Below are positions 5,508-8,379 of a stretch of DNA of 14,800 bases, piece after piece. The stretch is from a virus. Taxonomy: Duplodnaviria; Heunggongvirae; Uroviricota; Caudoviricetes. The translations under genes were made by a program, and so were the position numbers. The stretch lies in the IMG/VR virus record IMGVR_UViG_2526164631_000021; one strand, 5' to 3'. How positions within the stretch are numbered: position 1 is the first letter of the stretch; each line of letters opens with the position of its first letter. Under the pieces are notes generated by a model that saw only the letters and a program-made list of their open reading frames with translations, had not been told where the DNA came from and ran no database searches.

Positions 5508-8330
5508 ATGACGGCAGAGTACATCAGGGACTGGCAACAACCGCGCCACGCAGTGGGACGTGAAGGAACGGGGATCCCCGTTCCTGAATCTGCGCTTTCT
5601 TCCTGGCTGGATGCCTACCGGGCAGAGAACGAGCGCCGCCAGGAAATGGCTGATGCGGCGTTCTCCGCCACGCCGCTGGGCAACCTGATTAATAAAAGCC
5701 TGGATGCACAGGAAAAACAGGACAAAACCATCACACTGGCAGGAGACGCCAGAAAACAGGCACGCGGCGCGGTGGATGAAGCCATGGCCTCGCTGCGCCT
5801 GCTGCCGTCCTATCTGCGCGATCCGCTTATTCGCCACCTCTCCTTCCTGCGCAAAAAACAGGAAGTCGATCGCCGGAAAGGCAAAAAGAGCTGGCAGGCT
5901 GAACGCTACGCGCGCGGAACCCTGCGCAAAATATTCGAACGTCTGGACCGCACCGACCACCGCTGGCTGACACCGGGTTATCGCTCCCTTGCCGGACGCG
6001 AACGCCTGGATGATTTGCTTTACCTGCCGCAGCTCAACAAGCACCAGATACAGACGCTGGCCACCATGACGGCGGCGATGTTCAGCAGCACCTTCGAAAA
6101 ACTCTGCGATGGCTTTGGCGCGACTGATGGCGAACTGACCATGGATGTAACGCTGAAGGCGTATCAGATGCTGGCCCGCATGGCGTTACACCTGCACGCC
6201 ATGCCTCCACATTATGACGCACTGACAACAGACAAAGACCGGAGGAACGAACCGGACACGGAGCTGCTGCCGGGCGCAATCCTTCGCCTGACCTGTGCGG
6301 AATGGTGGAAACGCAAACTGTGGCTGTTACGTTGCGAGTGGAGAGAAGAACAACTCCGCGCCGCCTGTCTGGTTTCCAGAAAAACATCACCCTATCTGAG
6401 CCAGGACGCGTTAAGCGAGTTTCGCGCACAGCGCGAGAAAACACGCGATTTCCTGAAAAGTTTCATGCTGGAAAATGAAGACGGGTTCACGATTGATCTC
6501 GAGACAGTGTATTACGCGGGAGTAAGTAACCCGGTTCACCGTAAGGCAGAAATGATGGCCACCATGAAGGGACTGGAACTTCTGGCCGAAGCCCGTGGCG
6601 ACAGAGCGGTGTTTCTGACTGTCACCTGCCCGTCAAAATACCACGCAACAACGGAGAACGGTCATCCGAACCCCAAATGGAACGGGGCCACCATGCGCGA
6701 CTCCAGCGATTACCTGGTTAACACGTTTTTTGCGGCGGTCCGCAAAAAACTGAACCGCGACGGCCTGCGCTGGTATGGCATCCGCACGGTGGAGCCTCAC
6801 CATGACGGAACCGTGCACTGGCATATGATGGTCTTTGCCCATCCGGAAGAAATCGACACCATTGTGTCCCACACCCGCGATATTGCCATTCAGGAAGATC
6901 GTCACGAGCTGGGCGATGATATTACTCCGCGCTTTAAGGCGGAGTATGTAGACGGCTCAAAAGGCACGCCAACCAGCTACATCGCCACCTACATCGGAAA
7001 GAACCTGGACAGCCGCGCCGTGGATGGCATCGACCCGAAAACGGGCAAGCCACGCGTTGACCACGAAACAGGAAAATCAATGGCCGAGAGCGTGGAGCGC
7101 GCCATCGGCTGGGCGCGCCTTCACCGGGTCCGCCAGTTCCAGTTCTTTGGCATTCCCTCCCGTCAGGTGTGGCGTGAACTCCGCCGCCTTGCCAGCCAGA
7201 TGGCACGCAACCCGGAAGGCCCGCAACGGCTGAAGGATGACGCAATGGATGCGGTTCTTGCTGCCGCTGATGCCGGGTGTTTTGCCACCTACATTGAAAA
7301 ACAGGGTGGCGTACTTGTTCCGCGCAAGGACTACCTGATTCGCACCGCCTACGACCTCGCAGATGAGCTGAACGATTACGGCGAACAGAGTGTACAGATT
7401 TACGGGATCTGGTCGCCATTCATCGGGGAATCCTCCCGTGTGTGCACGCATCCGGATAACTGGAAGCTGGTAAGACGTAAACCGGAAGCGGAGGACAGCG
7501 CCCGCGAAAATGGTTTTGACCTTCAGGGCGGCCCTGCCGCCCCTTGGACTCGTGGCAATAACTGTCCCCGTGTACAGGAAACGGACAACAACGGGACAGA
7601 ACAGTCGGAAGAACGGCCAGCACCGTGGCCGCAGCTCCCTGACGGCGTTGAAGTGAACGAATGGATGCGCTCACTGAAACGGCACGAACGCCGGGCGCTG
7701 ATGCGTTCGCTTCGTGACAAACAGGCAAAAAACAGCAGTGATGAAATGCAGAGCTGGACACAGAGCCGCAAACAGCAGTGGCCTTTGCCTGATAACCACG
7801 AATTACTCGCTAAAGAATGGCGGAAGTCTGCTGAATCTCTCGGCCTGCATATCGGTGAACAACAGATGCAGCACCTGTTACGGGGCGGCAGTCTGTACGT
7901 TGACGGCAGCATCATTGCACCGCAGGGATTTGAAATTGTACGCAAACCGGATACCCGCCCGGACAGTCGAATCACGCAGCTCTGGCAGCGCCTGAGCCGT
8001 AATCATGGCGTAAGCAGCACGGAGATCCGCCATAACCCGGTCGCCAGCTATCTGGCACAGCTGGGGGCATCAGACCCTGAAGCCGCCGCACGCCTGGCAT
8101 CCACACTTCAGCAGGACCAGAACACCATGAAAACACCCGTTACCGTGCTTTCTGACATGCTGCGCGCCATCCGCGACGCAGAGCACGCACAGAGAATCAG
8201 TGAAATCACTGAACGCGCCAGCCGCAAAGCAGACCTGCTGCGGGGTGGCCTGACCAGCGGAAACAAAAAACAGACAGAAACGGGACTCACGAATCCCGTA
8301 AATGAGCAAAAAACGCGCAGCGATATATGA
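5508..8330 (+). CDS. rolling-circle replication initiator, P2 gpA family (HUH endonuclease) with a long C-terminal extension
   Basis: The 940-aa ORF contains a His-hydrophobic-His motif (GTVHWHMMVF, ~aa 437) and about 55 aa later a Y-x3-Y motif (PTSYIATYIGKN, ~aa 491/495), the arrangement characteristic of P2 A-type initiators. Its position after the early genes matches P2 gene A. It is about 180 aa longer than P2 gpA as I recall it. Confidence 0.8.
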   Translation: MTAEYIRDWQQPRHAVGREGTGIPVPESALSSWLDAYRAENERRQEMADAAFSATPLGNLINKSLDAQEKQDKTITLAGDARKQARGAVDEAMASLRLLPSYLRDPLIRHLSFLRKKQEVDRRKGKKSWQAERYARGTLRKIFERLDRTDHRWLTPGYRSLAGRERLDDLLYLPQLNKHQIQTLATMTAAMFSSTFEKLCDGFGATDGELTMDVTLKAYQMLARMALHLHAMPPHYDALTTDKDRRNEPDTELLPGAILRLTCAEWWKRKLWLLRCEWREEQLRAACLVSRKTSPYLSQDALSEFRAQREKTRDFLKSFMLENEDGFTIDLETVYYAGVSNPVHRKAEMMATMKGLELLAEARGDRAVFLTVTCPSKYHATTENGHPNPKWNGATMRDSSDYLVNTFFAAVRKKLNRDGLRWYGIRTVEPHHDGTVHWHMMVFAHPEEIDTIVSHTRDIAIQEDRHELGDDITPRFKAEYVDGSKGTPTSYIATYIGKNLDSRAVDGIDPKTGKPRVDHETGKSMAESVERAIGWARLHRVRQFQFFGIPSRQVWRELRRLASQMARNPEGPQRLKDDAMDAVLAAADAGCFATYIEKQGGVLVPRKDYLIRTAYDLADELNDYGEQSVQIYGIWSPFIGESSRVCTHPDNWKLVRRKPEAEDSARENGFDLQGGPAAPWTRGNNCPRVQETDNNGTEQSEERPAPWPQLPDGVEVNEWMRSLKRHERRALMRSLRDKQAKNSSDEMQSWTQSRKQQWPLPDNHELLAKEWRKSAESLGLHIGEQQMQHLLRGGSLYVDGSIIAPQGFEIVRKPDTRPDSRITQLWQRLSRNHGVSSTEIRHNPVASYLAQLGASDPEAAARLASTLQQDQNTMKTPVTVLSDMLRAIRDAEHAQRISEITERASRKADLLRGGLTSGNKKQTETGLTNPVNEQKTRSDI

Positions 8331-8379
8331 AGCGCGCACAAAACAGGCAAAAACGGGATTTCAGAATCCCGTAAACGAT
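8267..8379. repeat. two ~40-bp imperfect direct repeats, each containing a dyad ACGGGA-N8-TCCCGT (candidate parC-like centromere/operator)
   Basis: Copy 1 (~8267-8306) AAAACAGACAGAAACGGGACTCACGAATCCCGTAAATGAG and copy 2 (~8340-8379) AAAACAGGCAAAAACGGGATTTCAGAATCCCGTAAACGAT are 73 bp apart. Copy 1 overlaps the last codons of the replication gene; copy 2 is about 30 bp upstream of parM. Confidence 0.6.

What the first reader, a model, noticed from the sequence alone, without database searches (positions are those of the whole stretch)
8267..8379. Paired dyad-containing 40-bp repeats straddling the replication-gene stop and upstream of parM
Two ~80% identical 40-bp direct repeats lie 73 bp apart, each with an ACGGGA-N8-TCCCGT dyad. 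In R1 the parC centromere lies upstream of parM and consists of iterons bound by ParR, so these are candidate ParR sites and the parM promoter. They differ from the 11-bp R1 iterons. The first copy sits inside the last codons of the replication gene, so they could instead be replication-initiator binding sites or an origin-linked element.
Basis: seen in the sequence. Interest (0 to 1): 0.5.

Follow-up and report, generated by a model that had tools for sequence, protein, structure and literature searches.

The report
Two-box centromere of a prophage ParMR
The two repeats are most likely the DNA "handle" (parC centromere) that the small ParR protein grips so that the actin-like ParM filament can move the DNA of a P2-like prophage found in about a quarter of complete E. 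coli genomes. It is a known kind of system with an unusual two-palindrome layout.

Summary
Two 42-nt direct repeats (8264-8305 and 8337-8378, 81% identical, 73 bp apart) each hold an ACGGGA-N8-TCCCGT dyad found nowhere else in the window.

The window is a P88-like (Xuanwuvirus, P2 family) E. coli prophage. The repeats sit between the gpA replication gene and a parM-parR pair.

Comparative evidence ties them to the par cassette:
- Homology to loci with a 31%-identical gpA, or with no gpA next to the repeats, begins at the left edge of copy 1.
- The reading frame through copy 1 is not conserved.
- Four diverged lineages (E. coli, two Hafnia, Plesiomonas; ParM down to about 62%) each have exactly two GGG-N10-CCC boxes at about -125 and -52 from the parM ATG, spaced 72-73 bp, in otherwise diverged DNA.
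- The boxes occur only with ParR proteins whose ribbon-helix-helix strand reads RR[IV]S[FY]YL.

The conserved unit is the 16-20 bp box, not the 40-bp repeat. The Plesiomonas boxes cannot form hairpins, so terminator and RNA readings fail.

Best reading: a parC centromere bound by ParR, a variant of R1-type iteron arrays. Binding is inferred, not shown. A parM promoter is not supported. Interest is moderate.

The parts
8264..8305 (+). Direct repeat copy 1 (42 nt), inside the last codons of gpA. Its left edge coincides with the left boundary of the mobile par cassette.
8280..8299 (.). Box 1: dyad ACGGGACT-CACG-AATCCCGT. The conserved core GGG-N10-CCC is 8282-8297, at -125 from the parM ATG.
8300..8352 (+). 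Spacer between the boxes. It holds the gpA stop codon (8328-8330) and two CGCGCA hexamers (8314-8319, 8333-8338). It is poorly conserved across lineages and no promoter-like match was found.
8337..8378 (+). Direct repeat copy 2 (42 nt, 81% identical to copy 1), intergenic.
8353..8372 (.). Box 2: perfect dyad ACGGGATT-TCAG-AATCCCGT. The core GGG-N10-CCC is 8355-8370, at -52 from the parM ATG and 73 bp (about 7 helical turns) from box 1.
8378..8399 (+). ATTAAT(TAAT)CAA motif, invariant in four lineages, followed by the Shine-Dalgarno sequence AAGGAA (8394-8399). Its role is unknown: a possible weak -10 element or a translation-initiation region.
8407..9366 (+). parM, an actin-like segregation ATPase (319 aa).
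   Evidence: PF06406, PF21523
9371..9682 (+). parR, a ribbon-helix-helix adaptor (103 aa). The N-terminal MTTPTRRISFYLKP strand and the C-terminal NIRALFPE tail are conserved in all homologues compared (the RRISFYLKP strand is invariant).
9688..9711 (.). 10-bp GC-rich hairpin just after parR (-18 to -20 kcal/mol on either strand). It looks like a terminator and is the likely right end of the cassette.

Best explanation
The two repeats are the parC centromere of a type II (ParMRC) partition cassette carried by a P88-like, P2-family integrative prophage. The working element in each repeat is a 16-20 bp two-fold symmetric box: RCGGGAYT-N4-AATCCCGT in E. coli, with GGG-N10-CCC as the core conserved across genera. 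Inferred mechanism: dimers of the ribbon-helix-helix protein ParR insert their N-terminal beta-ribbon (T-R-R-I-S-F-Y-L, with R/S/Y predicted to face the DNA) into the major groove of each half-site GGGAYT. The two half-sites lie head-to-head about one helical turn apart, so each box would take two dimers. The two boxes are 72-73 bp apart (about 7 turns, same face of the helix), which would let the bound ParR molecules cooperate and possibly fill in the DNA between them. That would give a compact segrosome whose conserved ParR C-terminal tails (NIRALFPE) capture the growing ends of ParM filaments. ParM polymerisation would then push apart or position circular phage genomes after infection or excision. 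The locus has no + strand terminator after gpA and no recognisable promoter of its own, so parMR is probably transcribed as the tail of the early (cox-...-gpA) operon and kept silent in the lysogen by the C repressor. Shown here: the cassette, the boxes, their conservation, spacing and linkage to parMR, and their association with one ParR type. Inferred: ParR binding, stoichiometry, cooperation between the boxes, the expression route and the biological role.
For: Gene identities: ParM and ParR by Pfam, and a ParR profile matches the solved pB171 ParR/StbB RHH structure 2JD3 at E=1.3e-3.

Position: the repeats lie immediately upstream of parM, as in characterised ParMRC loci (PMC9426499).

Linkage to the cassette: locus L082 has a 773-aa gpA only 31% identical to the window's, plus an extra ORF. 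L120 has non-gpA ORFs upstream. Both become about 92-97% identical to the window starting at 8263-8265, the left edge of copy 1.

No coding constraint: three different frames and ends run through copy 1 (...KKQTETGLTNPVNEQKTRSDI*...NNKQKRDS* with the stop inside the box...NNEQKRDSQIP*).

Deep conservation: there are exactly two GGG-N10-CCC boxes upstream of parM, at -125/-52 (window), -124/-51 (Hafnia L003), -131/-59 (Plesiomonas L139, ParM 63%) and -128/-55 (Hafnia L140, ParM 62%). Spacings are 73, 73, 72 and 73, while flanks and box centres have diverged. The background density of this pattern in those loci is about 3e-4 per base (my estimate from the counts).

Specificity: 123 loci whose ParR has RR[IV]S[FY]YL all have at least one box, and about 100 have both. 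Eighteen loci with other ParR strands have none, and the R1, IncI, IncL/M and Pantoea plasmid loci also have none. This amounts to four independent lineages with boxes.

ParR pattern: the N-terminal strand and the C-terminal tail stay invariant while the middle of the protein falls to 41-58% identity, and the boxes stay the same in those loci.

Within E. coli the half-sites vary less than the central N4.

Uniqueness: the box occurs only twice in the whole P88 genome.

Precedents: palindromic cparC repeats bound by cParR in C. botulinum (PMC12270681); ParMRC-like srpMRC on integrative SXT/R391 elements, with direct and inverted repeats bound by SrpR (PMC4489591).
Against: No binding experiment exists, so the link is by association only. 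Characterised ParR proteins are described as binding tandem direct repeats (PMC9426499), whereas here there are only two boxes and they are inverted repeats. Most of the 123 box-carrying loci are one E. coli lineage, so the association rests on about 4 independent lineages with boxes against about 8 without. Serratia and Enterobacter relatives (NRKISFYL ParR) keep a GGGAAC half-site in a different, widely spaced arrangement, so the proposed R-versus-K specificity switch is not clean. The AlphaFold2 monomer model of ParR was of low confidence (pLDDT 55.7) and does not show the beta-strand. No promoter was found, so the autoregulation that usually accompanies parC is unverified.
Confidence: 0.75

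Rival explanations
1. The boxes are operators for some other regulator (phage Cox, C or Ogr-type, or a host factor) that controls parMR or the end of the early operon, and ParR binds elsewhere or non-specifically.
For: Two-fold symmetric 16-20 bp sites on the same helical face are typical of many dimeric regulators. No ParR binding data exist. The ATTAAT motif and Shine-Dalgarno sequence just downstream are also conserved, as expected for a regulatory region.
Against: The boxes move with the two-gene parMR cassette into different phage backbones. They are found only with one ParR strand type. The cassette encodes no other DNA-binding protein. The P2 Ogr-type late-promoter dyad is TGT-N12-ACA (my recollection, not tested here), which is not this motif.
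Confidence: 0.12
2. They are intrinsic (rho-independent) terminators for transcription on the minus strand, protecting gpA from antisense transcripts.
For: On the minus strand both look like terminators: an 8-bp stem, a 4-nt loop and a T-rich tail. Hairpin energy is about -10 kcal/mol. Copy 1's mismatch becomes a G-U pair on the minus strand.
Against: The Plesiomonas boxes (GGGACAACAAAAACCC and GGGACAACACTAACCC) have no internal complementarity. Neither the Plesiomonas nor the Hafnia-2 boxes have the A/T run, yet both keep position and spacing. Among 51 unique variants every stem change is one-sided, with no compensatory pair. No minus-strand gene points at the site. Minus-strand terminator-like sites already exist at 11503-11485 and 9711-9688.
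Confidence: 0.03
3. They are binding sites for the gpA rolling-circle initiator, or part of the phage origin, which in P2-type phages lies inside gene A (location recalled from the literature, not tested here).
For: Copy 1 lies inside the 3' end of gpA.
Against: Near-identical boxes lie beside a gpA that is only 31% identical and 167 residues shorter, separated from it by another ORF, and beside non-gpA ORFs. Boxes are kept next to gpA proteins of 789, 835, 913 and 940 aa. The cassette boundary falls at the edge of copy 1. One copy is always outside gpA.
Confidence: 0.03
4. They are plus-strand RNA hairpins in the gpA-parM transcript, acting in mRNA processing, stability or translational control of parM.
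For: The plus-strand folds are stable relative to shuffles (z = -2.8 and -3.7), and the boxes lie in the likely read-through transcript.
Against: There is no covariation and mismatches are tolerated. The boxes in Plesiomonas cannot form hairpins. No Rfam family matches.
Confidence: 0.04

Closest known systems
parC of plasmid R1 / NR1 (type II ParMRC; ParR = StbB, PF10784)
   Same: Same gene order (cis site, then parM, then parR), the same protein families, and the site lies directly upstream of parM. The DNA around the sites is A-rich in both. The ParR N-terminal RHH strand and the C-terminal ParM-binding tail are both present.
   Different: R1 has ten 11-bp direct iterons (2 x 5) flanking a clear -35/-10 promoter (seen in L013; PMC9426499). 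Here there are only two 16-20 bp inverted-repeat boxes 73 bp apart and no recognisable promoter. ParM is about 46% identical. The carrier is an integrated phage, not a plasmid.
pB171 ParR-parC (solved RHH structure 2JD3)
   Same: It is the only solved structure matched by the ParR profile (E=1.3e-3, residues 9-79), which supports the RHH fold and a helical ParR scaffold model.
   Different: [quoted passage not shown] The sequence match is weak.
Chromosomal cParCMR of Clostridium botulinum (PMC12270681)
   Same: It is a ParMR pair encoded on a chromosome, with a cparC made of palindromic repeats that binds cParR in gel shifts.
   Different: It has three palindromic repeats, unrelated sequences and a Gram-positive host. 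No prophage context is mentioned, and cParR there also depolymerises filaments.
srpMRC of SXT/R391 integrative conjugative elements (PMC4489591)
   Same: [quoted passage not shown]
   Different: SrpR has no homology to ParR. The element is conjugative, not a phage, and the repeat geometry differs.
AlpAC/alpS of Corynebacterium prophage CGP3 (PMC4446434)
   Same: It is a prophage-encoded actin-like protein with a DNA-binding adaptor that binds repeats upstream of its own operon. It is expressed early after induction and is needed for efficient phage DNA replication, which makes it a plausible functional analogue.
   Different: It has 24 short TTAAnnG repeats, the proteins are unrelated at sequence level, and the gene order is adaptor first.

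Membership tests
Type II (ParMRC) partition locus | Actin-like ParM ATPase gene | tested here: met
   Window 8407-9366: PF06406 E=2.3e-82 and PF21523 E=1.3e-68.
Type II (ParMRC) partition locus | Small ribbon-helix-helix adaptor gene (ParR) immediately downstream of parM | tested here: met
   Window 9371-9682 starts 5 nt after the parM stop. PF10784 E=3.9e-24; profile match to 2JD3 pB171 ParR, E=1.3e-3.
Type II (ParMRC) partition locus | Repeated cis-acting site (parC) adjacent to, usually upstream of, parM and inherited with it | tested here: met
   Two boxes lie at -125 and -52. The cassette boundary is at the edge of copy 1. The boxes are conserved in four lineages and are unique in the P88 genome.
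Type II (ParMRC) partition locus | ParR binds parC specifically | not testable with these tools
   Only indirect evidence: boxes co-occur with the ParR strand RR[IV]S[FY]YL in 123 of 123 loci, against 0 of 18 with other strands.
Type II (ParMRC) partition locus | The cassette stabilises an unstable replicon and exerts incompatibility | not testable with these tools
   Needs a plasmid-loss assay.
R1-type parC architecture | Arrays of tandem 10-11 bp direct iterons (2 x 5 in R1) | tested here: not met
   Only two dyad boxes were found. R1, IncI and IncL/M upstream regions (L011-L013) show iteron arrays and no GGG-N10-CCC box. The A-rich CAnAAAC segments at about 11-bp phase in the window are not conserved in L139 or L140.
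R1-type parC architecture | Autoregulated sigma-70 promoter embedded between the repeats | tested here: inconclusive
   No promoter-like site was found on the + strand anywhere between 7800 and 10123, which covers the whole gpA-parM junction. The spacer is variable. Only a conserved ATTAAT lies before the Shine-Dalgarno sequence.
Intrinsic terminator (minus strand) | Stable GC-rich hairpin followed by a U-run, conserved in relatives, downstream of a gene on that strand | tested here: not met
   The pattern is present in the window. However, the L139 boxes are not self-complementary, L139 and L140 lack T-runs, there are no compensatory changes, and no minus-strand gene lies upstream.
P2-type origin / gpA recognition site | Co-inheritance and co-variation with the cognate gpA initiator | tested here: not met
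   The same boxes lie beside a 31%-identical gpA (L082) and beside non-gpA ORFs (L120).

The most novel reading that the evidence does not exclude
P88-type parC is a minimal two-site palindromic centromere: two ParR-bound boxes seven helical turns apart, rather than a continuous iteron array. It would give an integrative P2-like phage an actin-driven way to position or partition its circular genomes after infection or excision, either as a transient plasmid-like carrier state or as replication-factory positioning like CGP3 AlpAC. If so, roughly a quarter of complete E. coli genomes would carry a dormant DNA-segregation machine and a centromere embedded in the chromosome.
Probability: 0.3. Interest if true: 0.65.

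Novelty: new variant of a known kind. Interest (0 to 1): 0.42.

Why it matters
ParMRC is the textbook actin-like plasmid segregation machine, and its centromeres are described as arrays of tandem direct repeats. This locus is present in 1291 of 5426 complete E. coli genomes, almost always on the chromosome inside a P2-like prophage. Its parM and parR are annotated, but no record or paper I could search describes its cis site.

Defining a two-box palindromic parC does three things:
- It gives a precise, testable ParR target, useful for studying the minimal requirements of segrosome assembly.
- It predicts that this system is orthogonal to the R1, IncI and IncL/M partition systems, because their site types differ.
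- It raises the question of what an integrative phage does with a partition system: episomal carrier state, positioning of replicating circles, or stabilisation during lysogenisation.

The biology is still an extension of a known system, so the interest is moderate rather than high.

Tried and rejected
- Rfam search of 8000-9900 on both strands gave only sub-threshold chance hits.
- Covariation test for a hairpin: no compensatory pairs among 51 unique variants. Divergence within E. coli is low, so this alone is weak. The Plesiomonas boxes settled the point.
- Promoter search: the tool found nothing on the + strand anywhere between 7800 and 10123. My manual attempts (TTCAGA-16-ATTAAT overlapping box 2; TATATG or TATAAG in the spacer) are not conserved across lineages, so I dropped them.
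- An 11-bp 'iteron' reading of the A-rich flanks (CAnAAAC segments at 8264, 8275, 8297, 8307, 8337, 8348, 8370, roughly in helical phase). It is attractive by analogy with R1, but absent in L139 and L140, so I treat it as lineage-specific at best.
- gpA relatives lacking parMR: the C-terminal 144 aa of this gpA have no homologues in phages outside the P88 group, so a direct with/without comparison was not possible. The cassette-boundary loci L082 and L120 served instead.
- L046 (only copy 2) shows a break in homology that removes copy 1; the upstream sequence was not identified. H15 ('plasmid' hit) is a whole P88-like prophage next to pheA. Neither was informative.
- The genome-contig scan with the ParR alignment returned only 3 close loci. 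Viral scans with the Plesiomonas and Hafnia ParM returned 1 and 0 loci.
- The AlphaFold2 monomer of ParR had pLDDT 55.7 and a disordered N-terminus, so I ran no fold search.
- Within-E. coli conservation by region shows only slightly lower variability in the half-sites than in the central N4. It is consistent but not discriminating.
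Full report
**1. What is in the sequence**

The window is a P2-family prophage of the P88 / Xuanwuvirus type. Its early region is 96-99% identical to Escherichia phage P88 and relatives. The gene order is:
- integrase (450-1448, minus strand)
- early genes
- a 940-aa gpA rolling-circle initiator (5508-8330, PF05840)
- parM (8407-9366)
- parR (9371-9682)
- a ClpX-zinc-finger ORF
- portal and terminase on the minus strand

The reported feature is real. There are two 42-nt direct repeats, 8264-8305 and 8337-8378, 81% identical and 73 bp apart. 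Each contains ACGGGA-N8-TCCCGT. That pattern occurs nowhere else in the window, with 0.02 matches expected. It occurs only at this place in the whole 35.8-kb P88 genome. Copy 1 overlaps the last ~22 codons of gpA, whose stop is at 8328-8330. Copy 2 is intergenic.

**2. Which gene do the repeats belong to?**

A scan of viral contigs for the dyad returned about 75 P88-like loci. Three observations tie the repeats to the par cassette.

- In L082 the neighbouring initiator is a 773-aa gpA only 31% identical to the window's, followed by another ORF. In L120 the upstream ORFs are not gpA. In both, near-identity to the window begins at 8263-8265, the left edge of copy 1, and runs through parM and parR.
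- The reading frame across copy 1 differs between contexts. In a Hafnia relative the gpA stop codon lies inside the box. DNA conservation there is therefore not a by-product of coding.
- The repeats are thus the left end of a mobile parMR cassette and are not tied to a particular initiator. This disfavours the origin / gpA-site alternative.

**3. What is the conserved unit?**

A ParM search found P2-like prophages of other genera with parMR in the same slot:
- Plesiomonas L139, ParM 63% identical
- a second Hafnia type L140, 62%
- Serratia L141, 58%
- Enterobacter L142, 54%

In the window, Hafnia-1 (L003), Plesiomonas and Hafnia-2 there are exactly two GGG-N10-CCC boxes in the 300 nt upstream of parM. 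They lie at -125/-52, -124/-51, -131/-59 and -128/-55, giving spacings of 73, 73, 72 and 73 bp. In a four-way alignment the invariant columns cluster at GGGA and A.CCC of both boxes and at an ATTAAT just before the Shine-Dalgarno sequence. The flanks, the box centres and the spacer have diverged.

The pattern's background density in these loci is about 3e-4 per base (my estimate from the counts). A pair at that position and spacing in three further lineages is therefore far beyond chance.

The A-rich left flank that makes the E. coli repeat 42 nt long is absent in Plesiomonas and Hafnia-2. In Plesiomonas the repeat extends to the right instead. The functional unit is therefore the box. Its E. 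coli consensus, from 99 unique variants, is RCGGGAYT-N4-AATCCCGT, with the central four bases free (CACA, CACG, CATG, TCAG, TAAA, TGAA).

**4. Hairpin or protein site?**

On the minus strand both E. coli boxes score as intrinsic terminators, and they fold at about -10 kcal/mol on either strand. Several results argue against a hairpin role:
- The Plesiomonas boxes (GGGACAACAAAAACCC, GGGACAACACTAACCC) have no internal complementarity, and L139 and L140 lack the T-run.
- Among 51 unique E. coli-type variants every stem change is one-sided, giving A-C, C-A, G-A or G-T, with no compensatory pair.
- No minus-strand gene faces the site, and other minus-strand terminator-like sites exist at 11503-11485 and 9711-9688.
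- Rfam has nothing here.

A fixed-spacing, two-fold symmetric pair of short conserved blocks with a free centre is the signature of a dimeric or tetrameric DNA-binding protein.

**5. Which protein?**

The cassette encodes only ParM (an actin-fold ATPase) and ParR.

- ParR is a PF10784 protein, and its profile matches the solved ribbon-helix-helix ParR of pB171 (2JD3, E=1.3e-3).
- Across homologues that fall to 41-58% overall identity, the N-terminal MTTPTRRISFYLKPAAVK.E..AC..LDSL segment and the C-terminal NIRALFPE tail are conserved and only the middle diverges; the RRISFYLKP strand itself is invariant. The first segment contains the RHH beta-strand, and the tail is the ParM-binding end by analogy with R1. 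Those loci keep the same boxes.
- Over all loci collected, including a metagenome scan, 123 loci whose ParR strand reads RR[IV]S[FY]YL have at least one box in the -131 to -51 interval. About 100 have both, and the rest carry a point change in one.
- Eighteen loci with other strands (NRKISFYL, RRKITFYL, RRKIQFYI, SRRCSFEL, RRKLTYYV) have none. R1, IncI-gamma and IncL/M plasmids instead show their A/C-rich or T-rich 10-11 bp iteron arrays, and the Pantoea plasmid locus also has no boxes.
- Counting independent lineages, this is roughly 4 with boxes against 8 without.

I infer that ParR dimers read the half-sites GGGAYT. The centres of the two hexamers are about 10 bp apart and head-to-head, with R7, S9 and Y11 predicted to face the groove. 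The R-versus-K contrast with the Serratia, Enterobacter and IncI group fits their different repeat, (A)TAGAAAAAT, arranged there as a wide inverted repeat. It is not a clean switch, because Enterobacter keeps GGGAAC half-sites 63 bp apart.

**6. Mechanism and expression**

The two boxes are 72-73 bp apart, about 7.0 turns at 10.5 bp per turn, so they lie on the same face of the helix. That geometry would allow cooperative ParR assembly across the spacer into a compact segrosome that caps ParM filaments. This is inferred by analogy with R1 and pB171 (PMC9426499).

No sigma-70-like site is found on the + strand anywhere between 7800 and 10123, which covers the whole gpA-parM junction. No -35/-10 geometry is conserved, and there is no + strand terminator after gpA. 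In Hafnia-2 both boxes even lie inside the upstream ORF. parMR is therefore probably the tail of the early operon, silent in the lysogen and expressed after infection or induction.

That would fit a role on circular phage genomes. CGP3 AlpAC (PMC4446434) and SXT/R391 srpMRC (PMC4489591) are precedents for this, but it was not tested here.

**7. Comparison with what is known, and novelty**

The locus meets the testable criteria of a type II ParMRC system: ParM, ParR, and an adjacent co-inherited repeated site. It fails the R1-type architecture test, which requires tandem direct iterons flanking a promoter. A 2022 study states that all ParR proteins characterised to that date bind direct repeats (PMC9426499). 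A 2025 study reports palindromic cparC repeats bound by a chromosomal cParR in C. botulinum (PMC12270681), so palindromic parC sites are not unprecedented.

P88 and phiSM papers mention the partition genes only as annotation (PMC6456863). I found no description of this parC in the searchable literature.

The region occurs in 1291 of 5426 complete E. coli genomes, and 1415 of 1417 places are chromosomal.

Verdict: this is a new architectural variant of a known kind. It is well supported as the cis site of the cassette, with ParR binding still to be shown. Confidence in the parC reading is about 0.75, and interest is moderate.

Noticed in passing
window 12879-14629 (minus strand): The large terminase gene is broken. 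P88 TerL (583 aa) aligns to the window in four pieces in frames -1, -3, -2 and -3, at 93-100% identity. That means at least three frameshifts, so this prophage copy is defective or the sequence has indel errors.
   Followed up: partly
window 9746-10078 (+): A 110-aa ORF just after parR carries only a ClpX C4 zinc-finger domain (PF06689, E=8e-18). It is also present in L082. A phage-encoded copy of the ClpX N-domain could mimic or interfere with ClpX substrate or adaptor recognition.
   Followed up: no
window 9688-9711: A strong 10-bp GC-rich hairpin lies 6 nt after the parR stop (-18.4 kcal/mol on the + strand, -20.2 on the - strand). It scores as a terminator only on the minus strand and probably marks the right edge of the par cassette.
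   Followed up: partly
window 9371-9682 and alignment A1: ParR is mosaic. The first ~30 and last ~8 residues are conserved across homologues (the RRISFYLKP strand is invariant) while the middle ~60 residues diverge to 41-58% overall identity, in loci whose parM 5' end and parC are nearly identical to the window. This suggests recombination or rapid evolution of the linker.
   Followed up: partly
window 8314-8319 and 8333-8338: Two CGCGCA hexamers 19 bp apart bracket the gpA stop codon in the spacer. In the Hafnia-1 relative both read CGTGCA, a parallel change. They are not conserved in Plesiomonas or Hafnia-2 and vary within E. coli. Unexplained.
   Followed up: partly
L224 17029-17169 (P88 genome 34928-35068): Phage P88 also carries a hok/gef-family (MokW-like) host-killing gene. 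This is a second plasmid-type stability module in the same integrative phage.
   Followed up: no
L141 4887-4940; L142 4883-4950: Serratia and Enterobacter P2-like prophages have parMR in the same slot but a different upstream architecture: a wide inverted repeat with 14-nt (L141) or 20-nt (L142) arms, TGGGAACAATATAGAAAAAT ... ATTTTTCTGTTTCGTTCCCA in L142, separated by 26-28 bp. The arms resemble the IncL/M GTATTTTTCT iterons. L141 also shares the CAGGCAAAAACGGGA flank of the window's copy 2.
   Followed up: partly
L082 6951-7046: Where the cassette sits behind a different gpA, a 31-codon ORF (MKRINANTKAKKQTETGFTNPVNEQKTRRDI*) preserves the C-terminal tail that gpA has in the window. It is probably a remnant of the recombination junction rather than a gene.
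   Followed up: no
window 8240-8420 versus the E. coli genome collection: The gpA-parC-parM junction is present in 1291 of 5426 complete E. coli genomes, with up to 3 copies per genome and almost always on the chromosome. It is annotated only as replication endonuclease and ParM.
   Followed up: yes
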